Below, in pieces: positions 11,273 through 64,000 of a DNA stretch of 64,000 nt; the stretch's first letter is position 1, and each line of letters starts with the position of its first letter. The notes under the pieces were generated by a model that was not told where the DNA came from, made no database searches, and saw only the letters and a list, made by a program, of their open reading frames with translations. The stretch is from positions 20,698 to 84,697 of IMG/VR virus record IMGVR_UViG_3300025913_000026. The stretch is one strand, 5' to 3'. A program made the translations under genes and the position numbers. The stretch comes from a virus.

Positions 11273-14200
11273 AGTAAAGATTTATCGCGGAAAGCGTAGC
11301 CAAGTCATTAGGGCTTGAAGCTAAAAATTTAATCCCTATTAAATTCCCTTTTAAAACATCGCCATTCCCTATGCCGCCTATTGAATTAATATCATTTAAA
11401 AAACTGGCCGAAAATGTTGATTCAATATCTGCAAAATCACTTAAAATTAAATTGCTTTCTTGTGGAGTATTCCCATAAGACATATAGTTGGTGTATATGT
11501 AGGGGCAAATCCAAATTTGGTTGGCTATCTCTGTCAGACTCAGCCAGCTCTTTTTTTCAATAAGCCCCGCATTAAACACTCTGGTTATAGTAGAATCATA
11601 TGATACTCCATAGAATTTATTTCTTCCACCAGTACCAGTCTGATCGTGAATATACATACGCCCACCTACAAAACTATATAAAGTATTTTCCGCACAAACT
11701 ATACAATCAGGAGCAAAGGAATATAAACTTGTGAAGTAATTCCTAGTTTCATCAAAAGCCATCGTCTGCCCATTTTCTACCAAATCTCCTAATGTCCCAG
11801 GCTGCAACACGCATAAATACTCTCCTACATTATCCTTTCTTATGTTAAAAGTACCGGTAATCCTTGTTCTGCCACCATATATATAATTATAATCAGTAAG
11901 GTATTTTGATATATTGGCCGAGCTCCATGTTTGTGTTTTATAGGTTTCAGATAAATCAGTAATTCCGTCACGGCTTAACCTTAGTTGCTTTCCTTTTATT
12001 GGATCAACGAAATAGTATACAAATCCACTTTGAACTACTGAATCTGGCTGATTGCTTACCCCAAAATCACCTGCATAATATTGCACATTATTAGCAGTGA
12101 TTATATCGGTTGTGGTAATCAATTGCTGATTCCCAGCAGTATCAGTAATGAATTTCTTATATACACCGGTTTGGCCACATTTCCTTTCTTGAAAAAATGT
12201 AAGTACTTTATCCCAGAACATCATCCTTTTTATTGCTCCATATTCTCTAACTAATTCATCGAAGTTCTGCGAATAGAATCTATTAGTTTGGTTTATATTA
12301 GTATTTCTCTGATATGCCAAGCTCCATCTATGCATTACGGGGTATGTAACTCTATTAGCGTTTTCATCGTACACAAATGCCCTTCCGTTTGAGTTAACTG
12401 AACTTGCATAGAAATCTGAGAAGTTTGGATCAATACAATATTGATTTATTACCTTATCTGTTGTCAGAGTTATGCTACCAGCAAGGAATGTGCATTGCCT
12501 ATCGCTATTATTGTTAACGCATTCAAAAAGCAAAAATATATGGTCATTAGCCAAATTAACTGTTCTAGTTATACTACCGTCAGAGTTATAAAATAACGTT
12601 AGCGGGAATGTATATGTCCCAGCATTACTAGCATCAAATGCAGGCACAATCATAGATGAGTCACCGAATCTATTTTGAACCCTTAATCTCCATGAATCTC
12701 CACTTCTTGCGGTTGGGAATGTCACAGAAAATGAACCTCCTAATGTAAATGTTGTTAATAGGTTTGCTGATTGAAACCATCTAGTATCTGTATGTGGATC
12801 AAAGGAATTACCAACTCCAACATACGGGACGCTATGGGGTATTATATTAGGATCATTATATGTAGACCCTTGAAAGTTTAATGGGACTAAAAACCTAAAT
12901 CCATTAGCCACGGTGTCTGGTATATTCCACGTATAGATATTACCGGTTTGTATAGCCCTTAATTTTATATAGTCATCCCCTTTAAAGAAATTAAATGTTG
13001 CTGGCTGTACTAAATATTCCTGGTTTTGTGTTTTACCTTGATGGAATCTATTTGAAAGAGTTGGGTTGCCTATTAAATATCGTTCCCCAAATTCATAATA
13101 AAGATTTAGATTATTGGCAACTGGTTGTGCTGGCGTATATATTTCAATAAAATAATTATTAAACCCAGCACCAAAATCAAATGTTCCATCGGTAGATGGC
13201 AATATTATTTTTATAAATTGCCCGTCTTTTGTTTCTCCGTTTACAACCGGCCCTATTATGGATGCTATTATTTCAAAGTCTTTTGTATTGCCGTATAAAT
13301 TAGCTGTAGTCCCATCATCATTATATCTTTTAAAGAATCGTATACGATCCCCTGGAGTAAAGCTATAACCCAATGGGCTGCCCGGATTATTTGTAACAAA
13401 TGCCCTTAATGATTCTATACTCAGGTAAGCATACTTAGTAACTCCTGAAACCGCTACCAAATCTTTATATGTTCTATCGGATACCCATTGAATAAAATTA
13501 GACTTACTTAAGTTTTTAGTTCTTACCCATTGATAATAATATGCCCAATCTGGTGGTAAATTATAAATAGAGGCATTGAATACAGTAGTGTCAGCAGATG
13601 CCAAACTCTCTGCGTAAGGTTCAGATTGAACTGAAAAACCATTCGTATAAACGGCACCATTTGTTCTTCCCTTCTGGTCAAAATATACTAACCCAAAACC
13701 ATAATTACTCAACCAGTCATATGCATTAAATGATTGAAGTGCCAATGCATTATAACTAAAATTACCTGATGATGAAATATAGCTATTGGCTAATCCAGTT
13801 CCTAATTTAAAAATATACAAATCATTTGACCCAGATGAAATTATTGTAAACCCAGCAGCCAATGCAGCCACCCTAAGCCCCTCCATAATTGCAGCAGAAT
13901 CATCTCCTACCTGTACTGCGTAATTAATATTACTTCCATCTACAAAATTCACATAATAAGTATCCATTGCAACAGTAGACACAATAATACCTCTTACTAC
14001 AATATGGATATTACCTGTACTTAACCCGCTATCTCCAGCCTGATTAGTTACAAATGAGGCGGCATAATTACCATAATAATATGGAACGTATCCTACAGAT
14101 ATATTGCTTGTATTCGTACCATCGCTAAAATCAGTCAAATTAGCATACCCTTCGGTAATATTCCCATAATCCAATACATTCCCATTTGGCAATACTTGGG

Positions 14201-27226: not shown

Positions 27227-27549
27227 TAATCCCTCCTTGTTGCTATTGATTCAATAAATGGCTTTTTAGCTACATCCTTTTCTTCATCTTGCGTTACCCC
27301 AGCAATTGTACCTAACACCTTAGCTGAATTAGCTACTGTTTCACTTTTTTCAAGCAATTTAAATATACGGTCAAAACTTTTATCTTTAGGATCGTCTATA
27401 TTCATACCTTTTAATGAATTATCATTTAGCATATCTGCCATCTCATTCATCTTTCTATTAAGGGCATAATACAACTTCGCTAACCCATTTTGCTCATAAA
27501 TAGATAACCGCTGTTCAAGTTGCTGTATTTTTTTATTTAAATCATCCAT
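27226..27549 (-). CDS. Putative terminase small subunit
   Basis: 107 aa helical protein directly upstream of terL, ends KPFIESIA. Confidence 0.45.
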   Translation of the reverse strand: MDDLNKKIQQLEQRLSIYEQNGLAKLYYALNRKMNEMADMLNDNSLKGMNIDDPKDKSFDRIFKLLEKSETVANSAKVLGTIAGVTQDEEKDVAKKPFIESIATRRD

Positions 27550-28456
27550 ACTTAGCTCCCTTTTTTAAGTTATCTAATTCCCATAAGGGTTGCAAATTTG
27601 AATAATGAAAACATTGCATTTGTTCTTCCGGATTGCTTAAATCGAATTTTGAACAGGGCTTTTTATGGTCGATATGAATATTGCCTGCCATAAACTCATT
27701 CCATGACATTCCATCTATAAAAAGGCTGCAAAAATAATCTTTAAATTCGGCTATTGTACACCCAAGCATTATCTCAGTAGAAGCGCATTTATGTGTATTC
27801 CATTGCTTTAGTGCCAATCTAGTTCTACTTCTTATATTTTTAGCGATCCGATATTCAATATCTGTTTCTGTTTTCATCTTAGACCACTCTCTATTCCTTA
27901 CCTTCCTATTTTCTTTGGCCCATTCAGATAATTGATAATTCTTATACCGGTCTGGATATTTAGCTTTAAAGGCTCTTTGTTTGGCTAAATATTCTTCCTT
28001 TTTACCTGTTCGTTCTAAGTATGCTTTTCTTCTTTGATAAGCCTTTTTACTATACTCAGGATCACTTGATCTTCTCCTTATCGCACCCTCTGCTGCTTTC
28101 TTTTTATATTTATCTAGTTTTCTATAGTTTCTATTCCTTTCATTTATTTTATCCTTGTATTTTTTGGCTTGTTGTTTATTTCTTTCTAAACTTTTTTCTC
28201 TATTTACTGCATACCATTTCTTGTGATAGTCAGGATCATTTTCAATTAATTTTTTATACCTCTCTTTGCCTTTTAATCTTTGCTTTTCCCTATTAGCTTC
28301 ATACCACTTCTTTTTTCTAATACTATCACATGGTTTACAATATGGCTGAGGCCATTTACCACCGCCAGCCTTGTTATAATCGCTAATATATTTTTCTTGA
28401 TTGCAATCCTTGCATATCTTCTTCTCTAGTTCTTTTATTTCATCAGGCATACCCAT
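27542..28456 (-). CDS. HNH homing endonuclease with Zn finger and basic helical repeats
   Basis: CKDC..CKPC; HIDHKKPCS.FDL....CFHYSNLQPLW..DNLKKG. Confidence 0.85.
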   Translation of the reverse strand: MGMPDEIKELEKKICKDCNQEKYISDYNKAGGGKWPQPYCKPCDSIRKKKWYEANREKQRLKGKERYKKLIENDPDYHKKWYAVNREKSLERNKQQAKKYKDKINERNRNYRKLDKYKKKAAEGAIRRRSSDPEYSKKAYQRRKAYLERTGKKEEYLAKQRAFKAKYPDRYKNYQLSEWAKENRKVRNREWSKMKTETDIEYRIAKNIRSRTRLALKQWNTHKCASTEIMLGCTIAEFKDYFCSLFIDGMSWNEFMAGNIHIDHKKPCSKFDLSNPEEQMQCFHYSNLQPLWELDNLKKGAKYG

Positions 28457-38021: not shown

Positions 38022-39430
38022 TTAAAACGGGTTATCATCTTGACAATTACTTTCCTCCGGCTTCCAATACTTCAAGCTTTTGTCTGCCTCAGAGAACATC
38101 ATTTTTCTTGGATTAAAATCCAATTCGATATTTAAGTTAGCGGCCCCGTTTCTCCATTTTCTCACAATAAGATTTGCTTTAAATTCCGTGCTATTACCAT
38201 TTTCATCTACCTGATATGATTCCCCCATCATCCAATCTCTATGAATAAACATTACAACATCTGCATCTTGTTCAATACTTCCACTTTCACGTAAGTCAGA
38301 TAATTGAGGATACCGGTCAATCCCCTTCCTTCCTGTTACCGCTCTATTCAATTGACACAACACAATAACAGGGATTTCTAAATCCTTTGCCAAAAGTTTA
38401 CAAGCTCGACTCAATTGGCTTACTTCGTTCTCACGCGTTCTGTTTCTTGTGTCATTTTCGCTATTCACCAATTGCAAGTAATCAATCATCAAAACATCCA
38501 AGCCATCTGAGTGTTTTAATTTTACAGCTTTAGCCTTAATGCTTGTAGGCGAAACATCTGTCTTGTCGGTTATGTAAATAGGCAATTCTATCAACTCTTG
38601 GATTCTCCTATACCATTGCGCCTTATGATCTTCATCCCTATATAAATTCCTAAATATGGTTTTGAAGTCATCATCAGACCCCAAAGAAGATAACCTAGCC
38701 CCTATTTCATTATTATTCATCTCCAATGAAATAATTCCAACTTTTTTCCCAGTCCTGGCTATCGACATGGCCATTTGGCCCATATAAGCCGATTTGCCGA
38801 CACTTGGCCTAGCGCCTATCACAATCATCTGCCCAGGGTAGAAGCCGCCATTTTCGCGATCTAATAGCGAATTACCGGTAGTTATTCCCATGCCGCCAGT
38901 TTTACTAATCTCTTCCTGATGTACTACGAGATTGTACATCACCTCGCTCATGTCAATCAATCTTTAGCATAAGCCCCTTGATTTATCTGCTGGATGGCTC
39001 TGTTTAACTGGCTAATTTGCTCTCCTACCGCCCCCTCTAGCTTAATCCCGCCATGAGTGAGGGTTATTAGCTCTCGCTCCATCCACATCCGTTTTACGAT
39101 ATGGCAATGATATTCCAAATGAGCAGAAGTGCATACGGAGTTAGTAGTTCGCATTAAGTAATACGGTGTTGCGTATTGCATATCACCATCATTCAAATGA
39201 GTTTTATTCTCTTTATTGAACATATAATCCGCAACTGTAAGTAAATCAATTGGTAATGAAGTTTTATACATTTCAGTCATGGCTTTATAGGTGACCCTGT
39301 TTGATTCCCTGTAAAAGTTCTTTTCTTCCACAAGGCCGTATGTTCTCCCAAAAGCAGACTTCTCTAACAAGCATATGCCAATGATAGCCGTTTCTAATTC
39401 TTCGTTGTAATGAATATTTGCTTGAAACAT
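38022..39430 (-). CDS. dnaB: DnaB-like replicative helicase split by a 1-nt frameshift at about 38958
   Basis: N-domain 38957-39430 (LE.AIIG..LLE, PIDLLTV); C-domain 38022-38960 with GARPSVGKS, IDYLQL, SDLRESGSIEQDAD. Confidence 0.85.
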
Positions 39431-51183: not shown

Positions 51184-52341
51184 CTACGCATATTTCCATT
51201 CATAGCCTCCACAACTGCTCCTAAGACCAGTTACCACTCTTCTAATTCCTACAGGATGTAAGTTAGTAGCCTTTGCGGCAGCGGATATAGAAGGATATGT
51301 GGCTATAACTTCTCCATTTTTTATTTGAGATATTGCTACCTTCTTGCCTTTCGTTCCCTCATATTTTATATTGGGTGTTGGAATAGTAATTTCTATTTTA
51401 GGATCAGGACTTAATATCAACTCCTTATATCTTAATCTTCCAGGAGCTTTCTTTAAAGCCCATATAAACCGTTCTGCATCTTTCATTTTTCTAAGGTTAT
51501 ACCTAAATGCTATTTCCTCACAATACCGGGTTAAATGCTTTACAGTTATTTTATGGTAGGTGCCTATAATGGTTCTTTTTAAATGGCTAAAGGCTCCCTC
51601 TATTGTGTTGGTATAGATAACCTGATCTCTTACATATTCATCTAATCCATGATTAACAGTTTCATGGCCTGCATATTCCCTCTTCAAACCTATATAATTA
51701 CATGATTCATCAGTCATTAGTACTGCATCTGTATCCACATTACGCTGAATTAATTGATGAATTAAAGGAGGGGCAACCCCGAAAGTACCAGTTGAAATTA
51801 GCTTTAATTCGCCGCCTCTTTCAACCATCCCCATTACCATAGTTTTGGTTTGATGGACGGTATTAGAATCTCGAAGTTCCTTTCTTTTCTGTTTATTCAT
51901 ATTAGGGACGCGACCACCGATATAAATCTCATCAATTTCTACAATGTTATCCAGCTTTACAGGCTCTTTAGGACGCATTATTTCCCGAATCCTATGAAGC
52001 ATAAACCAGGAGCATTTTTGAGAAACCCCTATATGCTTGGCTAATTGATAGGAAGAAATGCCCTTTTTGTTAGCTGTAGCTAGATACATGGCTATAAACC
52101 ACTTATTTAGAGGAATATTGCTGGCCTCAAATATAGTCCCAACCTTAACGGAGAACTTCTTAAAGCATTCTTTTTTACCGCATTTATATCTAGTTCCCTT
52201 TTCTATTACATAGCATTTATCATGGTCGCAATAAGGGCACACAACCTTACCATCAGGCCAACGCTGTTTTGCCAAATAGTTTCGGCAATCCTGTTCGTTT
52301 GATAGTTTTTGTATTAATTCCTGAAGATTTTTAAATTCCAT
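51184..52341 (-). CDS. IS1595-family (ISXO2-like) DDE transposase with C-terminal NUMOD1-like HTH
   Basis: RWP..CPYC Zn ribbon, VEIDEIYIGG, TDE..Y, VNH..YV..TNTIEG, HL.RY..E..FRYN; tail YPSISAAAK..GGYEWKY. Confidence 0.9.
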   Translation of the reverse strand: MEFKNLQELIQKLSNEQDCRNYLAKQRWPDGKVVCPYCDHDKCYVIEKGTRYKCGKKECFKKFSVKVGTIFEASNIPLNKWFIAMYLATANKKGISSYQLAKHIGVSQKCSWFMLHRIREIMRPKEPVKLDNIVEIDEIYIGGRVPNMNKQKRKELRDSNTVHQTKTMVMGMVERGGELKLISTGTFGVAPPLIHQLIQRNVDTDAVLMTDESCNYIGLKREYAGHETVNHGLDEYVRDQVIYTNTIEGAFSHLKRTIIGTYHKITVKHLTRYCEEIAFRYNLRKMKDAERFIWALKKAPGRLRYKELILSPDPKIEITIPTPNIKYEGTKGKKVAISQIKNGEVIATYPSISAAAKATNLHPVGIRRVVTGLRSSCGGYEWKYA

Positions 52342-56411: not shown

Positions 56412-56765
56412 GACGCGCCCCACCCCCCCCCACAAGTTATCACCTCTTCCAAATAAATCTATCTCCCAATCCCCCCCATCCCCCAATCCAACCCACCACA
56501 CTCTAACCACAAAGCAATCTAACCTAAACGCCAATTAGTCAAAGCCATAGACCATCACAACCACAACAGCGCAGATTACATAACTACCTGGAAAGCAAAA
56601 TGGGAAACGCCGCCCACCCCATTACAGATAAACGTTTGCCCATTGACCGACCATCGATCTAAACGTAGGGGGTGTACTCAGTGAGTGTAAATCGAGGGGT
56701 ACCCAGTTTTATTAGCGAGGGTGGGGTGGTTTACGGGAAAGTACCTAGATTTGTGGGTACTTGGT
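56412..56765. other. Non-coding C-rich to G-rich switch region (candidate origin or packaging site)
   Basis: C-runs 56418-56620, then G-runs 56668-56757, near the switch from minus- to plus-strand genes. Confidence 0.4.
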
Positions 56766-56768
56766 ATT

Positions 56769-57612
56769 CAATGTCGTTGAATTAAGAATAAATAATATAT
56801 TATGAGTAATAAAGAAGAGCATTCACAACAATATGAAAGATTACCAGAAGATGATAAAACAGTGGCCGATACAATATTGGGATATTTGAATGGTTGTAAT
56901 AATAAAAAAGCAGAGCGTATATTGTATGCTCTGCTTGAAGAAATTAGTTATCATTCTACTATTCACAGTGAGTGAAAATCTGTATTTTCTTTAACAGCTT
57001 TTTTCAAATCTCTTATTTCTTCTTTTAAATCTTTAATCTCTCTTTTTAATTGATTAAGGCTATCCATTAACTCGTAAATAATTCTATCATCAATATTTGA
57101 CATAGACAAAGTTTTTGTTTTGTTATAATTGTTTATAATTCATGGATGGCGGCTTTTTAGGGCTTTTCTTTCTAGCTTCTTTTCTTCCTGGTCTTACTAT
57201 TTCTACTGTTGCTCTTGCTATTTTATCAAAAGCATCTATGGCTGAAGAAATGGCTTTATGGATAAACATTTTTGGCGCAGATTCCTTTACCATTGACAGG
57301 GCATTTGTTCTGTTTACCTTGTAATTGTGCTTAGTGGTCTTTTCTGCCTCCTGTTCTTTTCTTAGTTGTTCATCTATTGGAAATGCTAAAACAGCAGTAG
57401 TGGTCATAATGAATACCTTTGCATAGAAATCCTGTTTTACAGCCAGTGAAGTTTTTCCAGACCATGCTTCTAGTTGTAGGCGGCATTTATATAGCTTATA
57501 TGCTTCTTCTATATTCCAACGCTTTTCGTATAAGGACACGAACTCATTATATGAAACTTGCTTTTGATCCATTAAGGAGGTTATCAGAATTTCAATACCT
57601 CCACCGTTATCA
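56769..57612 (-). mobile_element. IS4-family remnant (5'-truncated transposase with one IR-like end)
   Basis: ORF 57123-57572 has LYEKRWNIEEAYKLYK..QDFYAK..VRPGR; frame extends only a short way upstream; CAATGTCGTTGAATTAAG at 56769 resembles an IS4 end; no partner IR seen. Confidence 0.65.
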
Positions 57613-57642
57613 AAAAATATCGAATAACTGAAATTAGAATAG

Positions 57643-58092
57643 TTGGGTTATATTTATGGCCTTAATGCAGGAACCGGCAAAGCGGTTTATTCAATTCGTA
57701 TGTTTACTTCATTTCTTTTTAACAAGCTATCTCATCTACGCCAATTTTATTCAACCGAAACAGAATTTACACAGCACTTATTGAGCGGGGAGGTTAAGGT
57801 TTCTATCCCAGATTTAATTACATTCCAGGAAGAATACGAAAAACAAAAACCAATCAGTAATTCATCCGGATGTATTTTGCCTTCTCAGTTTCAAATAGGA
57901 GATAAGGCATCATTGAAATTGACTGGATTATCTTCAAAAGGTGATGGGTCGTTAGCTACCGTAGATTGTATAGCCGAAATATTAACGGTTCATTTCTATG
58001 AAGGAAAAGTGAAATATGATTTAGAACTCCCATTAGACTTTGGGAACACTAGAGTTTATAATATTGATTCTGTTTTTGTTTCGCCTGTATAG
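57643..58092 (+). CDS. Hypothetical protein (start uncertain)
   Basis: LPSQFQIGD..VHF..GKVKYDL..RVYNIDS; terminator follows. Confidence 0.55.
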   Translation: MGYIYGLNAGTGKAVYSIRMFTSFLFNKLSHLRQFYSTETEFTQHLLSGEVKVSIPDLITFQEEYEKQKPISNSSGCILPSQFQIGDKASLKLTGLSSKGDGSLATVDCIAEILTVHFYEGKVKYDLELPLDFGNTRVYNIDSVFVSPV

Positions 58093-58113
58093 TTTTTGCC
58101 TTCATTTATTCCT

Positions 58114-58147
58114 AAGCCCAGATTCTTAATTGAATCTTGGGCTTTTT
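58114..58147 (+). terminator. Intrinsic terminator
   Basis: AAGCCCAGATTC..GAATCTTGGGCTTTTT. Confidence 0.65.
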
Positions 58148-58201
58148 GATTTTTATTTCAAAAATATTTGGCAGTGTAATAAAAAGTAGTAATTTAGCTA
58201 C

Positions 58202-58396
58202 ATGAAAGGAAGCGATGAAATAATGGAAACATCTCCTGTGAGAATAGATAACGGAGTATTAGATATAGTTAGGAATATTAAGGCAATTACTGGATGCCCA
58301 ATTCAGCGTTTCGTTGAAGAGGCTATTGCTCTAAAGATTAGTAAGCTGCCTAAAAGCGTAAAAGATAAACTGGGACTTAAAGAAAAAACTAAATAA
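58202..58396 (+). CDS. Ribbon-helix-helix-like protein
   Basis: PVRID..VL..V..I...TG..IQRFVEEAI; TTTG..TAATTTAG promoter-like sequence upstream. Confidence 0.55.
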   Translation: MKGSDEIMETSPVRIDNGVLDIVRNIKAITGCPIQRFVEEAIALKISKLPKSVKDKLGLKEKTK

Positions 58397-58474
58397 TTAG
58401 CTATGCCACCTACATCTAGGATTAGTGTTGCAAAAAAGGGTGCTATCTGAAACTAGTAATCAGATCATAGCTAA
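58397..58474 (+). ncRNA. Structured RNA unit 1
   Basis: Closing stem TTAGCTATG/CATAGCTAA, inner ATCTGA/TCAGAT. Confidence 0.45.
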
Positions 58475-58489
58475 GTTCTTTGAATTTTA

Positions 58490-58586
58490 TTTATTGGTTG
58501 CTAAAAGCCGCGGGATTCCTAACGGAATTATTGTCTAACATTCGACCAGCTAAGGATGGCGGTTTAATAGTGGTGTAACCAATAAA
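58490..58586 (+). ncRNA. Structured RNA unit 2
   Basis: Closing stem TTTATTGGTTGC/GTAACCAATAAA, inner AAGCCGC/GCGGTTT and ATTCC/GGAAT. Confidence 0.5.
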
Positions 58587-58592
58587 CTTCTT

Positions 58593-58786
58593 TCTACTGT
58601 GTGATGTGGCTGGAATAACGCTGATGCAGATAAGTTCCGATAGGCAGCACTCGGGTAGTGGTAACATTATCGACTACATCTTCGGAGATATGCAAGGGTG
58701 CATAGTGGATTTAAAATCCATGAAATAGGCGGCCCTCTGTCAACTGGAACATAAGCAGGTAACCAATCCTGCCATCATATAGTAGA
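58593..58786 (+). ncRNA. Expanded tRNA-Leu(UAA)-like RNA (about 190 nt)
   Basis: 14-bp closing stem, D-like GCTG/CAGC, GTGGA-TTTAAAA-TCCAT arm, T-like GCAGG-TAACCAAT-CCTGC, plus inserted hairpins. Confidence 0.55.
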
Positions 58787-58919
58787 TACTTACTTAAGGT
58801 CGGGCAAATGGAATCCGGCGGTACACGTCCCATCATAAGACCCGATCATTTTTTTAACAGGATACAGCAAGAACTCAAAAGGCCACATCTATTCTATTCA
58901 TGGTTAAGATGTGGCACAT

Positions 58920-58992
58920 AGCTACATAGACCAACGGTAGAGTCAACAGACTTAAAATCTGTACAGTCCGGGTTCAAATCCCGGTGTAGCTA
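58920..58992 (+). tRNA. tRNA-Leu(TAA), short variable loop, CCA not encoded
   Basis: AGCTACA/TGTAGCT acceptor, ACAGA-CTTAAAA-TCTGT anticodon arm, CCGGG-TTCAAAT-CCCGG T arm. Confidence 0.9.
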
Positions 58993-59030
58993 CAGGATAA
59001 GGTTTAATGGTTAATGGTATTTGATAATAC

Positions 59031-59059
59031 GGGGCCAATTTCTACTGGCCCCTTCTTTT
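59031..59059 (+). terminator. Hairpin after tRNA
   Basis: GGGGCCA..TGGCCCC followed by TTCTTTT. Confidence 0.5.
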
Positions 59060-59071
59060 AAACTCCCACAA

Positions 59072-59428
59072 ATGAAAACAGTATATAACAACCCAGAAAC
59101 AGTAGATGCAATTAAATTAATGGTATTAGGTTGTATGCTGGCCGATTACGGTGCTAGGTTAATAGTTGATGATACCAAGCAAAATCTTAAATACCGTGTG
59201 AAGTGTGTGCTGAACGCAGTTAAAAATGTAGAATTGTATTTCATAAACCACAATAACACAACCGAAGAACATCGTAAGGCATTCAAACGCAGCTTTCTTA
59301 AAAACGAAACAGTACTGCTTGCTGATCTTAATTTAATGTGCTGGGAAATACAGGATGAAGGATTGGAACAAATAATAAGTGCAATCAGGCAAGTACTGGA
59401 TACGCCAGAAGAAATTAATAACCAATAA
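59072..59428 (+). CDS. Hypothetical protein (start revised to ATG 59072)
   Basis: ATG just after the hairpin. Confidence 0.55.
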   Translation: MKTVYNNPETVDAIKLMVLGCMLADYGARLIVDDTKQNLKYRVKCVLNAVKNVELYFINHNNTTEEHRKAFKRSFLKNETVLLADLNLMCWEIQDEGLEQIISAIRQVLDTPEEINNQ

Positions 59429-59441
59429 ATACAAATCAATT

Positions 59442-59694
59442 ATGTCAGAAGTTCCTCAGAAGGATACGAGAGAATTAACATTTGGCGAAAAAGCCGTAGG
59501 CTTAACTTTCAATCCAGGTGGTCATGAAAAGGTGAATGCTATCAAGCAGGCTCAGGCTATGTATATTGATATGCTTAATCAGTTTTCGTGATGAAACGAC
59601 TAATGGTGAAGTAAAACGCCAACTCTCCGTGGCTATTACAGAAGCACAAACAAGTCAAATGTGGGCTGTAAAAGCCGTGACTTGGCAATACTAA
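59442..59694 (+). CDS. Acb2/Tad1-like helical-hairpin protein, 1-nt frameshift in T4 at about 59583
   Basis: Corrected: MSEVPQKDTRELTFGEKAVGLTFNPGG..IDMLNQFRDETTNGEVKRQLSVAITEAQTSQMWAVKAVTWQY. Confidence 0.6.
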
Positions 59695-59799
59695 CCCAAC
59701 CAATATTTAATAACCAAGCCCCTTATAAGTAGTTCATAAATTAAAACCAGCTCCCTTTATGATATATGGACTATGGAAAGGGGCTTAAATTTTAATTAA

Positions 59800-60033
59800 A
59801 TGGCAAAAACAAAAGAGATATCATTTACTTGTGAAGAAATTACTTCAAAGCCGGATGGATATAGAAAAATGAAATTGATAGTGGATTCGCCAGATATAGA
59901 TGAGCTTTTAACCGAAATTGATGATGAAGATTTAATAGGTCATCTTCAAGGTAATTTCAATCCAGAAGATGTATTTACTGAAAAAGATCTCAAAAAATGG
60001 GCTGAAGAAAACGGGTACTTAAAAATACAATAA
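59800..60033 (+). CDS. Hypothetical acidic protein
   Basis: Ends KWAEENGY. Confidence 0.55.
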   Translation: MAKTKEISFTCEEITSKPDGYRKMKLIVDSPDIDELLTEIDDEDLIGHLQGNFNPEDVFTEKDLKKWAEENGYLKIQ

Positions 60034-60041
60034 ATAATTAT

Positions 60042-60299
60042 ATGCAAGGAACAGTAAAATATAGCGAAGAGTTTATGACCATGACAGGTCTAAAGCGCTG
60101 GGTGGGAATTGAACTCCCCTTTGAAGATACAATCCATAGCCCAATTGATAAATTAGAAGAAGCCATGTCTAAAGTACAGTCATTTGCTGCTCGTTCAGGA
60201 ATTATTCATCCTCCTGTTACTAATGCAAATTATGGTTATCCCAATCTTCTAAACCCAGACGAACAACTACCTGTAATTCAAGTAAGAGAACAATACTAA
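60042..60299 (+). CDS. Hypothetical protein
   Basis: ORF in operon. Confidence 0.5.
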   Translation: MQGTVKYSEEFMTMTGLKRWVGIELPFEDTIHSPIDKLEEAMSKVQSFAARSGIIHPPVTNANYGYPNLLNPDEQLPVIQVREQY

Positions 60300-60311
60300 A
60301 ACAATAAATAC

Positions 60312-60500
60312 ATGGAATGGATACCAGTAAGCGAAAGAAATCCAGAACATAGCGGCAAATATTTGACATATGCCTTGGACTATCATAAGGTAGGTCACGC
60401 ATGGTATAACACAAAGTACCGGCTTGGATGGGAAGATGACAAAGAAGAATGGCTTCCCGTGACTCATTGGTGTGAACTTCCTGAACCACCTAAACAATAA
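60312..60500 (+). CDS. DUF551 family protein
   Basis: MEWIPVSERNPE..VTHWCELPEPP. Confidence 0.85.
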   Translation: MEWIPVSERNPEHSGKYLTYALDYHKVGHAWYNTKYRLGWEDDKEEWLPVTHWCELPEPPKQ

Positions 60501-60510
60501 AACAACATAT

Positions 60511-60717
60511 ATGACAGACAGAATAAAAGGGCTTACAGTTATCCTTGAAAAGGATGTTCGAGAAGATGATTTAGAGGTATTCATTCAGGCAATATCGCTT
60601 ATGAAGGGAGTTCAGCAGGTTATTCCCCGAGAAGCCAATCATGAAGATATTATTCAGGAAATGAGAACTAAATCCGACATGAAGTCTAAAATATATGAGT
60701 TTATAAAAAACCTATAA
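60511..60717 (+). CDS. Hypothetical protein (start revised)
   Basis: MTDRIKGLTVILEKDVREDD..AISLMKGV. Confidence 0.6.
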   Translation: MTDRIKGLTVILEKDVREDDLEVFIQAISLMKGVQQVIPREANHEDIIQEMRTKSDMKSKIYEFIKNL

Positions 60718-61008
60718 CAAATGACTAAAGAAACAATCTTAGGCGATAAACGAGCCCGGCCAAAGCATTTGAAGGAATATTACGGGCCATGTTATCAATT
60801 GCAAGAACTGATGAAGAAAACCAAAAACAGGACAAAATAGATTCAATGTGTTAAAGAATGGGACGCAGGCGCAGACTACTTTATGTATACTGGGATAACG
60901 TTTATCAGCGGCAATATTCCACTACAACCTTTCCGGTAATGCAGGATAAACATTCAAAAGGCCGCTACAAAATACTTTGGTGCTGGAAACTAAAATACCC
61001 TTGGAGAA

Positions 61009-61341
61009 ATGATAAATAAAGAGCCTGGAAACGAACATTTATGGAGACAATTCATCCGGCTGGGGGAAATGATGGGAGATGGTTTGCATCATGAGGAGCC
61101 GTGGATTGCAAAGGAATACAAGCGCTTGATGATGATCTTGTGCCCACCAACAGTAGAAGAAAAGGCCGCGATTAGAGAACATAAAAACAAATCCATTAAC
61201 GCTCAAATGGCTGAATTATTGAAGGATAGGCATTGTTCATGTGGTGGCAGTATAAAACAATCAAGATCAGGTAGTAAAACCGCATATTGTGATAGATGTA
61301 GAGCGAAATTTAAAGCAAAACCTAAAAAACAATCAGAATAA
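61009..61341 (+). CDS. Zn-ribbon hypothetical protein
   Basis: LGEMMGDGLHHE..CSCGG..CDRC. Confidence 0.65.
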   Translation: MINKEPGNEHLWRQFIRLGEMMGDGLHHEEPWIAKEYKRLMMILCPPTVEEKAAIREHKNKSINAQMAELLKDRHCSCGGSIKQSRSGSKTAYCDRCRAKFKAKPKKQSE

Positions 61342-61607
61342 ATGGATAAACCAGAAGAACTAATAACAGATGAACAGATAGAGAAGGCCTGGGGGAATGG
61401 GAACTTTGGAGAGTATCTGAATAACAACAAGCGAGAACTAATCAACAATACAGTCCTGAAATGCGCAAGTGGATTAAGGACTGGCGCTACGGCTACAAGC
61501 ATATGTGCAGAACTTGGGCTTACAGTAAGCAAAAAAATAAATGGAAGCTAACTGAGCAAGGCCAGTGGTATTTATATTGCGTTTATTCACAGGGTAAAAG
61601 TTATTAA
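61342..61607 (+). CDS. Hypothetical protein with probable frameshift in A7 at about 61531
   Basis: Alternative frame continues KNKWKLTEQGQWYLYCVYSQGKSY* up to the next gene. Confidence 0.5.
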
Positions 61608-61609
61608 TT

Positions 61610-61876
61610 ATGGACATGCAGGAAATATTAAATAAGTGGTATTTAACGCCAAAATACTTCTCAAATGACCACATTACTGAGCCGTTGGTTTTTGATTGCA
61701 TGGTTGATTATGCGCGACAAACTTCTCTTCATTTCGCTAAATGGGTCAATGAAAACTATCTCTATCACCAAGATGGACTATGGTATAAAAGTGAAATCCC
61801 TGAATGGGGATCCAAAACGGACGAAGAAGTCTGGGCGCTTTATTTAAATAGACATAATAATTCAAATCCTTGGTAA
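61610..61876 (+). CDS. Hypothetical protein
   Basis: ORF in operon. Confidence 0.55.
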   Translation: MDMQEILNKWYLTPKYFSNDHITEPLVFDCMVDYARQTSLHFAKWVNENYLYHQDGLWYKSEIPEWGSKTDEEVWALYLNRHNNSNPW

Positions 61877-61940
61877 ATAACAATTTATATATTGTATTGA
61901 ACATGGGAATAGACTTCAGTAATATAAATCAAAGCATAAA

Positions 61941-62285
61941 ATGAGCAATCACAACAGAAGATTATTGGATAAGATTCGGTATAACCGACAGATGGATCAG
62001 CTTTTATCATTAATACGGAAATCTATTATAGCCTCTGAAAAATATACTATCTATGAAGTAGACATGAGCTATACTAGTTCCTCGTTTTACGAGTTTAGAG
62101 TATACCGACAAGGAGAAACATCTGAAATATTAATGTGGCAAACGGTACAAATAGGCACAGATGAGTTTGACGATCAATTCAAAGCGCTAGATAATGTCCT
62201 TAACAACTTGCTTACTCATGGTGTAATGCCAGACATATACCCAATGTACATTTCTGAAGAAAAGGAGGGTGAAGATGGTCGATAA
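61941..62285 (+). CDS. Hypothetical protein
   Basis: ORF in operon. Confidence 0.5.
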   Translation: MSNHNRRLLDKIRYNRQMDQLLSLIRKSIIASEKYTIYEVDMSYTSSSFYEFRVYRQGETSEILMWQTVQIGTDEFDDQFKALDNVLNNLLTHGVMPDIYPMYISEEKEGEDGR

Positions 62286-63162
62286 AGTGATAAGCTTCGA
62301 TAGTTTCAAGGTTAGGTGTTCCCAGATTGTAGCTGCCTTATCAAATAGCCGGTCAAATCCTATTCTAACAGAGAATCAGGAAGCTAGGATAAAGGAATTG
62401 AACGATAAGCTGCAAGAAAAAGGCAAAATAACCGAAAAACAGCAGGCTGAATTAGCCGAATTACAAGTAAAGGAAGAAAATAGCAAGAAAGTAGTCCTCT
62501 CAGATACCTATATAGCATATCTAATGGCTGAATATGCCTGGATAACCGAAGGCATGATAGCCGTAAACAAGGAATCTATGGAGTTATTGGCTATTCAGAA
62601 GGGCAGAGAAGGCGAAAATGAGGCTGTAACGCTTCTAATGAGAGTTGATAAGCAACCATACCAAATCCACAAAGAAAGGATTTATAACGATTATCTGAGT
62701 GGAGAGATAGATATTTACCTGGGGGAGCATGTTTATGCTGCAACCAATATAACTGACATAAAAAATTCATGGGATTATCCTACGTTTCTAAAGAAGATCA
62801 ATACAGGGCTGGAAAATGGTCAGAAAGAGCAGGTCCAAGGATACTGTGACATTACCGGAGCCGGGGAAGGATATATTGCCAACACTTTAATCAGCAATCC
62901 AGAGCACATTATAGAGGAAATGAGATGGCGTGTGACTAAAAAGATCGGTGCTACCACTCCAGAATCTCCTGAAATGCTAAAAGAATGGCCTAAATGGGAA
63001 CGATCAATGAGGTTCGATCACATTCCACCAAATAAACGTGTGCATAAGATCAAAGTAGAGCCGTTCACGGAGTTTGAGAAACAAAAGCTGTATGATAGGG
63101 TAAAATTTGGCCGGGATTGGTTGAATCAATTCCACGAAAAGTATCAGGTATTGAATAAATAA
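62269..63162 (+). CDS. YqaJ/lambda-exonuclease-like PD-(D/E)xK nuclease
   Basis: FKVRCS..KG.E.E..SGEID..DIKNSWD..QVQGY. Confidence 0.75.
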   Translation: MKMVDKVISFDSFKVRCSQIVAALSNSRSNPILTENQEARIKELNDKLQEKGKITEKQQAELAELQVKEENSKKVVLSDTYIAYLMAEYAWITEGMIAVNKESMELLAIQKGREGENEAVTLLMRVDKQPYQIHKERIYNDYLSGEIDIYLGEHVYAATNITDIKNSWDYPTFLKKINTGLENGQKEQVQGYCDITGAGEGYIANTLISNPEHIIEEMRWRVTKKIGATTPESPEMLKEWPKWERSMRFDHIPPNKRVHKIKVEPFTEFEKQKLYDRVKFGRDWLNQFHEKYQVLNK

Positions 63163-63182
63163 TTAAAATAAGTACTTAAATT

Positions 63183-63374
63183 ATGATAAGTAATGAGCAT
63201 GATGGGAAGAATCCGCAAATCAGTACCACGGTAAGCTGGGGATTGTATCAAGAAATAGATGAAATGGCTAAGAAAAATGACAGAACTTTGTCAAACATGG
63301 CTGCTATTTTATTGGAACGAGCGGTAAAAGAATCTAAAAGAAAGCGCACTAATGCAAAAGAAAATAATACTTGA
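63183..63374 (+). CDS. Ribbon-helix-helix (Arc/CopG-like) protein
   Basis: ISTTV..LYQEIDEMAKKNDRTLSNMAAILLERAV. Confidence 0.7.
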   Translation: MISNEHDGKNPQISTTVSWGLYQEIDEMAKKNDRTLSNMAAILLERAVKESKRKRTNAKENNT

Positions 63375-63810
63375 AATAACCCCGCAGACATATGTTCGGG
63401 CGACGCAGAATGATAGAATATTCTTCAGAATACCAAGAGATAAATTACGCCCAGCCAGTTTGAAAAGACTGGAAAGATTGGAGCAGTATAATAAATATAA
63501 AATAGCTGTATTAGCATTAGCCAAGCAGCAACATTTCATGCTTCCAGAGCAAGGGGCTGAAATAATATTCTATATCCCGGTGTCAAAAAGCTGGAAAAAA
63601 TATCAAAAAGAAGCCCAACATATGAAGCTTCACAGAAATAAGCCGGACTTGTCGAACTTACTAAAGGCCCTGGAAGATGGGCTTATGACCGAAGATAAAG
63701 GGATAGCTCACTATGCAGGACTTGCAAAGATTTGGATCAATGAACCTACGGGGAGAATAGAGATAAATATCCATACTCCAAGTCTTAGTTCCATGGATGT
63801 TTTATCGTAG
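63352..63810 (+). CDS. rusA: RusA-family Holliday junction resolvase
   Basis: FYIPVSKSW..H..KPDLSNLLKALEDGL..D..I...KIW..GRIEI. Confidence 0.8.
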   Translation: MQKKIILEITPQTYVRATQNDRIFFRIPRDKLRPASLKRLERLEQYNKYKIAVLALAKQQHFMLPEQGAEIIFYIPVSKSWKKYQKEAQHMKLHRNKPDLSNLLKALEDGLMTEDKGIAHYAGLAKIWINEPTGRIEINIHTPSLSSMDVLS

Positions 63811-63850
63811 TTTTTCGAAGTGAGTACCGTCATCGGTGAGTATTAGACAC

Positions 63851-64000
63851 TCATATGTAACAAATCAGTTACATTATTGATATAACTAATTGTTAATCAA
63901 AATGTTGATAAAGAAACTTACAAGCAAAGCTTGAAAACTTTATCAACATTTTGATTAACAATTAGTTATATCAATAATGTAACTGATTTGTTACATATGA
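63851..64000. repeat. Perfect inverted repeat of at least 63 bp with a 24-nt imperfect tip, cut by the window edge
   Basis: 63851-63913 is the exact reverse complement of 63938-64000. Confidence 0.95.

What the first reader, a model, noticed from the sequence alone, without database searches (positions are those of the whole stretch)
63352..64000. Candidate hairpin telomere or concatemer junction beside a RusA resolvase
Seen: 40 bp after the RusA-like stop, two exact 63-bp inverted arms flank AAACTTA-CAAGC-AAA-GCTTG-AAAA, an asymmetric internal loop capped by a 5-bp mini-hairpin. The arms are AT-rich with nested palindromes (ATGTAAC/GTTACAT, TTGAT/ATCAA), and GTGAGTA occurs twice just upstream. 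Known: incompletely paired AT-rich hairpin ends resolved by a Holliday junction resolvase are the poxvirus strategy, whereas N15-type protelomerase ends are fully paired; no protelomerase is seen here. Inference: a tailed phage or linear plasmid-prophage with covalently closed ends resolved from cruciforms by its own RusA. Alternatives are a cruciform origin or a fold-back sequencing artefact, though the intergenic position and structured tip favour biology.
Basis: partly seen in the sequence, partly recalled or inferred. Interest (0 to 1): 0.82.

Follow-up and report, generated by a model that had tools for sequence, protein, structure and literature searches.

The report
Fold-back phage genome end beside RusA
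The palindrome marks a conserved turning point at one end of a soil phage's linear DNA, always next to a junction-cutting enzyme gene, which suggests hairpin-type ends made without the usual telomere enzyme; physical closure is unproven, and the contig's 7.5-kb terminal repeat is probably not two full copies per genome.

Summary
Two perfect 63-nt inverted arms (63851-63913, 63938-64000) flank a 24-nt asymmetric spacer 40 nt after a RusA gene. The window end is the end of an 84,697-bp IMG/VR phage contig, so the 63-nt arm length is set by the assembler and not by biology.

Relatives show the feature is biological. In 47 contigs from about 44 metagenomes, plus two Bacteroidetes MAG contigs, this RusA subfamily reads outward at a contig end or sits at the centre of a read-through palindrome. 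Fourteen contigs show the turnaround, with spacers of 0 to 44 nt. A terminal motif, GAGTATTA, occurs in 17 of 34 tails (0.16 expected). One relative has a different Holliday-junction resolvase in the same slot beside the same CAAGC-AAA-GCTTG mini-hairpin. No protelomerase, tyrosine recombinase, protein-primed polymerase or ParAB was found.

The best reading (about 0.5) is a hairpin telomere or its replicated inverted-dimer junction, processed by a junction resolvase as in poxviruses and rudiviruses. Closure and RusA's role are inferred.

The contig's 7,541-bp perfect ITR is doubtful as a two-copy repeat. In the likely source run it has 1.15x the depth of the unique DNA, not 2x.

This scan noted similar fold-back ends on other, unrelated phage contigs. 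Only contigs were available, no raw reads.

The parts
56460..64000 (+). Terminal arm 'R': the right copy of the contig's 7,541-bp perfect inverted terminal repeat. Small early-type genes are all transcribed outward towards the tip.
   Evidence: perfect ITR of 7,541 bp; right copy = genome 77157-84697; ORFs; Logan contigs break at 56460 and at 63913.
56465..56494 (+). C-rich (G-rich on the other strand) tract at the inner ITR boundary. It is the only canonical G-quadruplex motif in the genome. Similar tracts mark the arm/unique boundary or the far contig end in relatives.
62269..63162 (+). Exonuclease-like protein (297 aa), conserved next to the terminus in G001 and G012.
   Evidence: phrog_5715 'exonuclease', E = 1.9e-19; 64-66% identical homologues 1-2 kb from contig ends. 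No Pfam match.
63183..63374 (+). Ribbon-helix-helix (Arc/CopG-like) DNA-binding protein. It is a candidate binder of the small palindromes in the arm; this is inference.
   Evidence: PF07878, E = 4.4e-8; phrog_3431 Arc-like repressor; a homologue sits in the same place in G001.
63352..63810 (+). RusA-family Holliday junction resolvase, the last gene before the turnaround, reading outward.
   Evidence: PF05866, 41.7 bits against a cut-off of 22.8; phrog_140; alignment to E. coli RusA 1Q8R; position conserved in 50 of 51 loci.
63836..63847 (+). Conserved terminal motif M1 (GTGAGTATTAGA here; consensus roughly TGAGTATTATATAC), 78 nt inside the turnaround. A partial copy, GTGAGTA, lies at 63820-63826.
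   Evidence: GAGTATTA occurs in 17 of 34 tails against 0.16 expected, with 4 hits in 116 kb of control flanks.
63851..63913 (+). Visible part of the left arm of the turnaround. Its true outer limit is unknown.
   Evidence: Logan contig 5 of run X1 ends exactly at 63913.
63914..63937 (+). 24-nt non-palindromic spacer (the putative hairpin loop) holding the 5-bp mini-hairpin CAAGC-AAA-GCTTG at 63921-63933.
   Evidence: An 84-nt spanning unitig has depth 2.9 in run X1. The same mini-hairpin lies 8 nt from the contig end of relative G001.
63938..64000 (+). Right arm, the exact reverse complement of 63851-63913, cut off by the contig end.

Best explanation
The palindrome is the sequence trace of a strand turnaround at one physical end of a linear tailed-phage genome, from an uncultured clade probably infecting Bacteroidota. 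It is either a covalently closed hairpin telomere or its replicated form, a head-to-head inverted-dimer junction.

Proposed mechanism (inferred):
1. Replication runs round the tip and produces a palindromic junction.
2. The junction extrudes as a cruciform, which is a Holliday junction.
3. The phage's own resolvase (RusA here, a PHROG-190-type enzyme in one relative), encoded as the last gene before the tip, cuts it.
4. Host ligase seals the products into two hairpin ends, one carrying the spacer and one its complement.

The conserved arm motifs (M1, and M2 in relatives) would be the cis-acting site. Most molecules in the sample appear to carry this arm once, on one side of the unique region. 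The full 7.5-kb ITR of the contig is either a minority or replicative form, or the assembler's extension from a short inverted G-rich boundary tract.

Shown: the turnaround sequence, its conservation, its gene neighbourhood, the absence of a protelomerase, and the depth ratio. Inferred: covalent closure, the resolvase's role, and the replication scheme.
For: 1. Reads span the turnaround. An 84-nt unitig (30 + 24 + 30 nt) at depth 2.9 in Logan run X1 is independent of the IMG assembler.

2. The feature is clade-wide. An alignment of RusA from G000, G003 and G006 recovered 51 loci on 47 IMG/VR contigs from about 44 datasets. In 35 loci the RusA stop is at most 200 nt from the contig end or the gene is cut by it, in 8 the tail is 201-900 nt, and 7 are read-through palindromes. 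Two Bacteroidetes MAG contigs show the same.

3. The turnaround is visible in 14 contigs, at homologous positions 70-175 nt past the stop (646 nt in G013).
- Spacer 0 nt: L045, L048, L049, G015, L057, L081, L083, L084, G011.
- Spacer 4 nt (L067), 14 nt (G013), 20 nt (L111), 24 nt (G000), 44 nt (L065).
The spacers are single-copy and non-palindromic. They cannot come from joining two duplex ends, but they fit a hairpin loop or a flip/flop junction.

4. Motif GAGTATTA occurs in 17 of 34 tails against 0.16 expected (maximum 3 in 2000 shuffles), with only 4 hits in 116 kb of control flanks. It is not a genome-wide motif in G000.

5. In G001 the RusA slot holds a 306-aa ORF matching phrog_190 'Holliday junction resolvase' (E = 1.5e-28). 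It is followed by the same CAAGC-AAA-GCTTG mini-hairpin, and the contig ends at the position homologous to the end of G000's spacer.

6. No PF16684 in G000 or five relatives. No PF00589, PF03175, ParB or ParA-like domain in G000.

7. None of about 15 long contigs of the clade (60-102 kb, same TerL family) is circular or has direct terminal repeats.

8. The spread of contig shapes (whole palindromes, contigs stopping at or shortly past the centre) is what de Bruijn assemblers produce when a centre-spanning k-mer exists (PMC9528984).

9. In a metagenome two identical phage ends would rarely meet for in-vitro ligation, so the spanning reads most likely come from an intramolecular or pre-existing turnaround (inference).
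Against: - No raw reads could be laid; only Logan contigs were available, and read laying is capped at one call. So there is no direct view of read pile-ups, fold-back pairs or the local depth profile.
- Covalent closure cannot be seen in any short-read assembly.
- The spanning unitig has only 2.9x depth against 18.3x for the arm. That fits depletion of hairpin fragments or a rare replicative form, but also a rare by-product.
- Phages often carry RusA near the end of an early operon for general debranching, so adjacency alone does not prove a telomere role.
- G000's RusA has Ser at the position aligned with E. coli D72. A covarying Glu may compensate.
- The nature of the other genome end is unresolved.
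- The phage has a large terminase, so virion ends could be terminase-made.
Confidence: 0.5

Rival explanations
1. Full poxvirus/rudivirus-type architecture. Every genome is R'-U-R, with two identical 7.5-kb inverted terminal repeats and a hairpin at both ends, so the contig is literally correct.
For: - G000 has a perfect 7,541-bp ITR.
- G012, G013 and G014 have ITRs of 11,478, 4,495 and 1,295 bp.
- The last 56 nt of G003 are the exact reverse complement of its own 11317-11372.
- G004 is exactly the unique segment of G003, within 1 nt at each boundary.
- Run X1 holds a contig joining the left unique flank to the arm (loose end at 56460).
- Two identical hairpin ends would solve end replication on both sides.
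Against: - In X1 the arm has depth 17.8-18.3 against 15.8 for 16 kb of adjoining unique DNA, a ratio of 1.13-1.16 and not 2. In X2 the ratio is about 1.0. GC content is equal.
- The unique contig runs 30 nt into the arm without a branch, so all right-hand unique ends enter R and only about 2-2.5x is left for the left junction.
- G011's 30-kb arm runs from the structural genes through R to the turnaround with no branch.
- In G001 the far end carries a boundary tract that is similar to, but not identical with, the inner one, and no second arm.
- All the ITR contigs are also explained by a short inverted boundary tract of at least k bases.
Confidence: 0.2
2. An open end with a short terminal palindrome. 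The DNA end is not covalently closed. A short terminal inverted repeat lets the 3' end snap back and prime synthesis, either in vivo (rolling-hairpin style, as in parvoviruses) or during end repair in library preparation. This gives a minority of fold-back molecules that assemblers then mirror.
For: - Several contigs stop only +2, +11 or +11 nt past the centre or spacer (L079, L081, L067). G001 stops exactly at the end of the spacer homologue.
- The spanning unitig has low depth, 2.9 against 18.3.
- The centres are AT-rich.
- A terminase is present, so ends could be cut.
Against: - G000's spacer cannot be made by self-priming from its own mini-hairpin. The 7 nt on one side and the 4 nt on the other are not complementary, and the 3' ends of either spacer strand have no complement just inside the arm (sequence).
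- Spacers up to 44 nt are inherited as single copies in different lineages.
- Arms of at least 63-110 nt are supported by k-mers next to the spacer.
- Zero-spacer junctions cannot be primed without a loop.
Confidence: 0.2
3. An internal palindrome, not an end. A long inverted repeat (cruciform origin, regulatory site, or a plastid-like IR pair with a tiny spacer) lies inside a circular or terminally redundant genome, and short-read assemblers merely stop or fold back there.
For: - Arms longer than k always offer a mirror path in a de Bruijn graph (PMC9528984).
- An earlier scan note (e1-3417602) describes such a case in another phage.
- Contigs alone cannot tell a circle holding a 15-kb palindrome from a hairpin-ended linear molecule.
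Against: - In more than 50 contigs from about 44 datasets, none continues past the turnaround into non-mirror sequence, and none is circular or has direct terminal repeats.
- A circle U + R + spacer + R' needs R at 2x depth, but 1.15x is observed.
- Several arms plus spacer are short enough for 150-nt reads or k = 127 to bridge to any unique continuation.
Confidence: 0.07
4. A pure sequencing or assembly artefact (random chimeric fold-back reads or MDA inversions) with no biological meaning.
For: Fold-back chimeras and whole-contig palindromes are known artefact classes. Only one run (X1) shows the spanning unitig for this particular genome.
Against: - The turnaround lies at homologous positions next to the same gene and the same motifs in 14 contigs from different projects and assemblers, including two non-IMG MAG assemblies.
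- The spacer mini-hairpin is conserved in a relative whose neighbouring protein is only 66% identical.
Confidence: 0.03

Closest known systems
Poxvirus telomeres (vaccinia flip/flop hairpins, concatemer resolution sequence, A22 RuvC-like resolvase; PMC8956199, PMC9415595)
   Same: A linear dsDNA genome whose end reads as an inverted repeat round a short, incompletely paired tip. A conserved motif sits in both arms a few tens of nt from the apex. A virus-encoded Holliday junction resolvase is present and no protelomerase. An ITR is present in the assembled form.
   Different: This is a tailed phage with terminase packaging. The resolvase belongs to the RusA family (or PHROG-190 type), not RuvC-like. 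Many relatives have fully paired, zero-spacer tips. The arm seems to be single-copy in most molecules. Closure and flip/flop forms are not shown.
Archaeal rudiviruses SIRV1/2 (hairpin ends, about 2-kb ITRs, Hjr resolvase; PMC5062984, PMC3157427)
   Same: A prokaryotic virus with linear dsDNA, hairpin ends, ITRs and its own junction-resolving enzyme proposed to process replicative intermediates.
   Different: Rudiviruses are rod-shaped archaeal viruses without a terminase and with an Hjc-type enzyme. Here the virus is a bacterial tailed phage with RusA, and the two-copy status of the ITR is doubtful.
Telomere phages N15, PY54, phiKO2 and VP882 (TelN-type protelomerase with a telRL palindrome; PMC12624138, PMC10612081)
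   Same: A tailed phage whose DNA has a palindromic site that yields hairpin ends. Zero-spacer palindromes occur in many relatives.
   Different: No ResT/TelK catalytic domain, no tyrosine recombinase and no partition genes were found. The turnaround is at the contig end and is not an internal telRL flanked by two different arms. Some tips carry 14-44 nt asymmetric spacers that a protelomerase reaction would not regenerate.
Parvovirus/AAV rolling-hairpin termini (PMC3087758, PMC8195378)
   Same: Terminal palindromes with internal mini-hairpins, and head-to-head replicative junctions.
   Different: Parvoviruses are ssDNA viruses with a Rep/NS1 nickase. No such nickase was seen here, and the genome is 70-100 kb of dsDNA.
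Palindromic unitigs and whole-contig palindromes in de Bruijn assemblies (Rahman and Medvedev, PMC9528984)
   Same: This explains why relatives appear as whole palindromes (G011, G015, L048, L049, L084) or stop at or just past the centre, and why the 63-nt arm length is not biological.
   Different: The artefact concerns only how far the mirror is written out. A k-mer spanning the centre must exist in the reads, and here it recurs at a conserved site.

Membership tests
Hairpin-telomere linear replicons resolved by a Holliday junction resolvase (poxvirus/rudivirus type) | Covalently closed (snap-back, exonuclease-resistant) DNA ends | not testable with these tools
   Only assembled contigs and Logan contigs were available. 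This needs wet-lab work or long reads.
Hairpin-telomere linear replicons resolved by a Holliday junction resolvase (poxvirus/rudivirus type) | The sequence reads through the tip into its own reverse complement at the genome end | tested here: met
   14 contigs with turnarounds, and a spanning unitig in run X1.
Hairpin-telomere linear replicons resolved by a Holliday junction resolvase (poxvirus/rudivirus type) | Virus-encoded Holliday junction resolvase | tested here: met
   RusA PF05866 above the cut-off. A PHROG-190 resolvase occupies the same slot in G001. Activity on the telomere was not tested.
Hairpin-telomere linear replicons resolved by a Holliday junction resolvase (poxvirus/rudivirus type) | Identical inverted terminal repeats at both ends of every genome | tested here: inconclusive
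   The contig has a perfect 7,541-bp ITR, but arm depth is 1.13-1.16x that of the unique DNA in X1. G011 and G001 argue for a single arm.
Hairpin-telomere linear replicons resolved by a Holliday junction resolvase (poxvirus/rudivirus type) | Flip and flop isoforms of an incompletely paired tip | not testable with these tools
   In duplex reads, arm-spacer-arm and its complement are the same molecule, so contigs cannot separate isoforms (reasoning).
Hairpin-telomere linear replicons resolved by a Holliday junction resolvase (poxvirus/rudivirus type) | Conserved cis element in the arms near the apex (a resolution site) | tested here: met
   Motif M1 is enriched about 100-fold in the tails. M2 occurs in several subclades. 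Function was not tested.
N15-type telomere phages | Protelomerase (ResT/TelK catalytic domain) | tested here: not met
   No PF16684 in G000, G001, G003, G012, G013 or G014 at E <= 1. No PF00589 in G000.
N15-type telomere phages | Linear plasmid prophage with partition functions | tested here: not met
   No ParB_N or AAA_31 ParA-like match in G000.
Protein-primed ITR phages (phi29/PRD1 type) | Protein-primed family B DNA polymerase | tested here: not met
   No PF03175 in G000. Replication genes are a DnaB-like helicase and an initiator.
RusA family (PF05866) | Profile match above the curated threshold | tested here: met
   41.7 bits against a cut-off of 22.8, E = 2.2e-10; phrog_140, E = 3.6e-14.
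RusA family (PF05866) | Three catalytic aspartates (E. coli D70, D72, D91; from my own knowledge of the RusA literature) | tested here: inconclusive
   The D70 and D91 equivalents (D99, D115) are conserved in 49 of 49 sequences. The D72 equivalent is Ser101 in G000: S in 10 sequences, N in 5, D in 34. All 15 S/N forms have Glu at position 108 and none of the 34 Asp forms does.

The most novel reading that the evidence does not exclude
A large uncultured clade of Bacteroidota tailed phages replicates as a linear genome with hairpin telomeres made and resolved by an ordinary Holliday junction resolvase (RusA or a PD-(D/E)XK-type substitute) instead of a protelomerase. The replicative form carries the arm on both sides, in the poxvirus style. 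The terminase starts at the G-rich boundary tract and packages unique region plus one arm up to the closed tip. Virions therefore hold a one-armed genome whose hairpin end enters the cell first, and the missing arm is rebuilt by strand invasion from the boundary tract.
Probability: 0.2. Interest if true: 0.88.

Novelty: new variant of a known kind. Interest (0 to 1): 0.62.

Why it matters
All described bacterial and phage hairpin telomeres depend on a dedicated telomere resolvase (PMC12624138, PMC10612081, and the other papers listed). Resolvase-based hairpin ends are known only from poxvirus-like eukaryotic viruses and archaeal rudiviruses.

If the ends of this clade are closed hairpins processed by RusA, that would be a third, independent use of the cruciform-resolution strategy. 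It would also be the first in tailed phages, in a lineage that is common in soil, rhizosphere and freshwater metagenomes.

There is a practical lesson too. 'ITR, complete' labels in viral catalogues can hide fold-back contigs, such as the 59.9-kb and 15.5-kb whole palindromes here, and can overstate genome length. Depth must be checked before such repeats are believed.

Tried and rejected
- Exact search for the spacer with flanks in IMG/VR, and for the 24-nt spacer in JGI metagenome contigs: no other contig.
I could not look up other assemblies encoding the identical RusA or the genes at the left boundary.
- Read laying gave only Logan contigs, so there are no read starts, read ends or fold-back pairs. 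Runs X5-X8 hold little more than a 32-nt promiscuous element and are not counted as holders. The missing cover of the last bin in X2 and X3 is not used as evidence.
- RusA as a single query found no IMG/VR relative. An alignment of three sequences was needed. The exonuclease-like anchor recovered only G001 and G012.
- My recollection that G001's terminal ORF resembles T7 endonuclease I was not confirmed. There was no PDB sequence match, and Pfam gave only DUF1064, just under its cut-off. The resolvase call rests on PHROG 190 and 9019.
- Rfam 'miRNA precursor' hits on the palindrome are far below gathering scores and only reflect the long hairpin.
- Pfam and PHROG scans of ten small ORFs of the arm found nothing beyond a weak match to a PHROG of unknown function. 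The endonuclease VII-like call beside the terminase is PHROG-only.
- The IS1595-family DDE transposase was considered as a hairpin-forming enzyme and rejected. It sits at a different place and in a different orientation in G003, and it is absent from G001 and G006.
- In-vitro head-to-head ligation of two genome ends was rejected. Identical ends are too dilute in a metagenome, and ligation cannot give single-copy asymmetric spacers.
- BLASTN mapping of the ends of G002 and G005 onto G000 failed because of divergence.
Full report
**1. The observation**

The region reads as described. The repeat finder reports arms 63851-63913 and 63938-64000, 63 nt each, 100% complementary, with 24 nt between them. 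The spacer is AAACTTA-CAAGC-AAA-GCTTG-AAAA. The ORF 63352-63810 is a RusA-family protein (PF05866, 41.7 bits against a cut-off of 22.8; phrog_140), and its stop lies 40 nt before the arm. Upstream are a ribbon-helix-helix protein (63183-63374) and an exonuclease-like protein (62269-63162). Folded as single-stranded DNA, the 150 nt give -67 kcal/mol with z = -22.

The important correction is that base 64000 is the last base of the record. The window is G000:20698-84697 of an 84,697-bp IMG/VR virus contig classed 'inverted terminal repeats'. The first 7,541 bases are the exact reverse complement of the last 7,541, and both ends stop exactly 63 nt past the spacer. The 63-nt arm is therefore a lower bound set by the assembler. 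The 'predicted' mirror sequence at the other contig end is the same graph path read backwards.

**2. What the genome is**

G000 is a tailed phage. It has:
- a large terminase and a portal;
- a DnaB-type helicase and a replication initiator;
- a sigma-factor-like protein and an endonuclease VII-like protein beside the terminase (PHROG only);
- sugar-modifying enzymes and an IS1595-family transposase.

It has no protelomerase domain, tyrosine recombinase, protein-primed polymerase, ParB or ParA-like protein.

The closest cultured phages are Flavobacterium and Cellulophaga podoviruses, at only 27% TerL identity. The only genome-collection hits for this RusA subfamily are two contigs binned into Bacteroidetes MAGs. 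The runs that hold the DNA are rhizosphere and soil metagenomes.

**3. The turnaround is a conserved feature of a whole clade**

An alignment of RusA from G000, G003 and G006 recovered 51 loci on 47 IMG/VR contigs from about 44 datasets.
- In 26 loci the RusA stop lies within 200 nt of the contig end.
- In 9 loci the gene is cut by the contig end.
- In 8 loci the tail is 201-900 nt.
- Of the remaining 8 loci, 7 are contigs that read through a palindrome centred just past RusA; the eighth (L047) has a 1,430-nt tail with no palindrome.

RusA always reads outward. Long contigs of the set (60-102 kb) share the TerL family of G000 and are classed 'linear' or 'ITR', never circular or with direct terminal repeats.

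The turnaround itself is visible in 14 contigs.
- Zero spacer: L045, L048, L049, G015, L057, L081, L083, L084 and G011.
- With a spacer: 4 nt (L067), 14 nt (G013), 20 nt (MAG contig L111, arms 110 nt), 24 nt (G000) and 44 nt (L065).

Within one subclade, contigs stop +2, +11 or +63 nt past the same centre, or read through completely. That is the range of outputs expected from different assemblers once a centre-spanning k-mer exists: SPAdes and MEGAHIT write palindromic unitigs out in full, ABySS splits them, and minia does either (PMC9528984).

G011 (59,908 bp) and G015 (15,484 bp) are perfect palindromes from end to end. Their IMG/VR 'ITR' label is only the fold-back.

**4. Conserved cis elements and a swapped enzyme**

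The arm carries a motif, M1, with consensus roughly TGAGTATTATATAC. In G000 it reads GTGAGTATTAGA at 63836-63847. Its core GAGTATTA occurs within 150 nt after the RusA stop in 17 of 34 tails. Shuffled tails give 0.16 on average (maximum 3 in 2000 shuffles), and 116 kb of upstream flanks hold only 4 hits on both strands. M1 is not a general motif of G000. A second block, M2 (TTAACATAATGTTTATTATA, with a palindromic core), follows in several subclades.

In G001 (78,380 bp, rated complete) the exonuclease-like and ribbon-helix-helix genes are followed not by RusA but by a 306-aa ORF. That ORF matches phrog_190 'Holliday junction resolvase' (E = 1.5e-28) and phrog_9019, with Pfam DUF1064 just under its cut-off. 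The same CAAGC-AAA-GCTTG mini-hairpin follows it. The contig ends 8 nt later, at the position homologous to the end of G000's spacer read on the other strand.

So two unrelated junction resolvases occupy the last slot before the same tip. I take this as the best single argument for a functional link. It is still an inference, because phages often place such enzymes at the end of early operons.

**5. Is the 7.5-kb ITR real?**

For:
- G012, G013 and G014 have perfect ITRs of 11,478, 4,495 and 1,295 bp.
- The last 56 nt of G003 are the reverse complement of its own 11317-11372.
- G004 is exactly G003's unique segment, within 1 nt at each boundary.
- Run X1 holds a contig that joins the left unique flank to the arm.

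Against:
- In X1, the probable source run, a 16,155-nt contig of unique DNA has depth 15.8 and runs 30 nt into the arm without a branch. The two arm contigs have 17.8 and 18.3. The ratio is 1.13-1.16, not 2.
- In X2 the ratio is about 1.0.
- GC content is the same in the two regions.
- G011's 30-kb arm is collinear with G000 from the structural genes through the replication genes into the exonuclease gene, RusA and the turnaround, with no break.
- G001's far end carries a boundary tract that resembles, but is not identical to, its inner one, and then stops.

All arm/unique boundaries, and the far ends of G001, G002, G005 and G006, are G-rich tracts (C-rich reading outward). In G000 this tract is the only canonical G-quadruplex motif in the genome.

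The simplest reading is that the unique region is flanked by a short inverted boundary tract. Where that tract is identical over at least k bases, assemblers walk from the left end into the arm and write it twice. A minority of molecules with a full left arm, about 2-2.5x of 16x in X1, remains possible.

**6. What the turnaround most likely is**

Reads spanning the spacer exist: an 84-nt unitig at depth 2.9 in X1.
- A random artefact is excluded by the conservation of site, gene neighbourhood and motifs.
- In-vitro ligation of two identical ends is implausible in a metagenome, and it cannot produce single-copy, non-palindromic spacers.
- Self-priming from G000's mini-hairpin would copy the 7-nt flank, yet 4 unrelated bases are found.
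- An internal palindrome followed by unique DNA is not seen in any of more than 50 contigs, and a circle holding R-spacer-R' would require 2x depth.

What remains is strand continuity round a tip. That means a covalently closed hairpin, or the inverted-dimer junction made when replication runs round such a tip. The low depth of the spanning unitig fits either poor recovery of hairpin fragments or a rare intracellular form.

With no protelomerase present, the known way to turn such a junction back into two hairpins is cruciform extrusion and Holliday-junction cleavage, as proposed for poxviruses and rudiviruses (PMC8956199, PMC5062984, PMC3157427). RusA or its substitute is the obvious candidate.

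G000's RusA keeps the equivalents of E. coli D70 and D91 but has Ser at the D72 position. Across the family, Ser or Asn there (15 sequences) always comes with Glu seven residues downstream, and Asp there (34 sequences) never does. This looks like a relocated acidic ligand and not an inactive enzyme.

I put about 0.5 on the hairpin/junction reading with resolvase processing. The remainder is split as follows:
- 0.2 on the literal two-armed genome;
- 0.2 on an open end with a short self-priming palindrome;
- 0.07 on an internal palindrome;
- 0.03 on pure artefact.

**7. Comparison and novelty**

Functionally the closest systems are poxvirus and rudivirus telomeres. This is not an N15-type telomere phage, because the defining enzyme was tested for and is absent. 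Literature searches found no tailed phage with resolvase-dependent hairpin ends.

Earlier notes of this scan describe similar fold-back ends on other phage contigs (e1-6089595, e1-6088469, e1-5925743, e1-5349226, e1-3107983) and one collapsed-repeat artefact (e1-3417602). None is a sequence look-alike of this window. They are leads, not evidence.

I class the finding as a new variant of a known kind. Its interest is limited by the lack of physical proof.

**8. Limits**

Only contigs, not raw reads, could be laid, and only once. The other genome end remains unresolved.

Noticed in passing
window 63352-63810 (RusA), residues 99-115: The position aligned with E. coli RusA D72 is Ser in G000. Across 49 relatives, Ser or Asn at this site (15 sequences) always co-occurs with Glu seven residues downstream (K-A-x-E-D-G/A), while the 34 sequences with Asp never have that Glu. 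This looks like a relocated active-site carboxylate.
   Followed up: partly
window 56465-56494 (= genome 77162-77191, mirrored at genome 7507-7536); also contig ends of G001, G002, G005, G006 and ITR boundaries of G003, G012-G014: The arm/unique boundary is a G-rich tract (C-rich reading outward), and it is the only canonical G-quadruplex motif in G000. Related contigs break in or just after such tracts. It may be a packaging site, a recombination site or a polymerase-stalling site.
   Followed up: partly
window 58994-59025, directly after tRNA-Leu(TAA) at 58920-58993: A 32-nt stretch reaches very high depth in all four runs laid (contigs up to 700x in X5) with different flanks on both sides. 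It is a short element shared by many unrelated sequences in these samples, and its nature is unknown.
   Followed up: no
window 51184-52341 (-): An IS1595-family DDE transposase with a zinc ribbon and a weak C-terminal I-HmuI NUMOD-like match lies inside the phage. G003 has a 68-79% identical copy at a different position and in the opposite orientation. G001 and G006 have none.
   Followed up: partly
window 38022-39430 (-): The DnaB-like helicase appears split into two adjacent ORFs: 157 aa matching the N-terminal part of phrog_19 and 312 aa matching DnaB_C.
   Followed up: no
window 63352, 62575, 60998 (runs X2, X3): Logan contigs of sister samples match the arm up to a gene boundary, for example exactly at the RusA start, and then continue with unrelated sequence. 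This suggests mosaic exchange of arm modules between co-occurring relatives.
   Followed up: no
window 27542-28456 (-): A 304-aa protein next to the terminase matches phrog_1035 'endonuclease VII' (E = 1.2e-11) and has no Pfam match. If it is a real debranching nuclease for packaging, RusA would be free for a specialised role.
   Followed up: partly
G011 (IMGVR_UViG_3300032323_002596, 59,908 bp) and G015 (IMGVR_UViG_3300032213_002243, 15,484 bp): Both IMG/VR records are perfect palindromes from end to end, that is, half-length sequences written forwards and backwards. They are still classed as 'inverted terminal repeats', with completeness estimates of 89% and 32%.
   Followed up: yes
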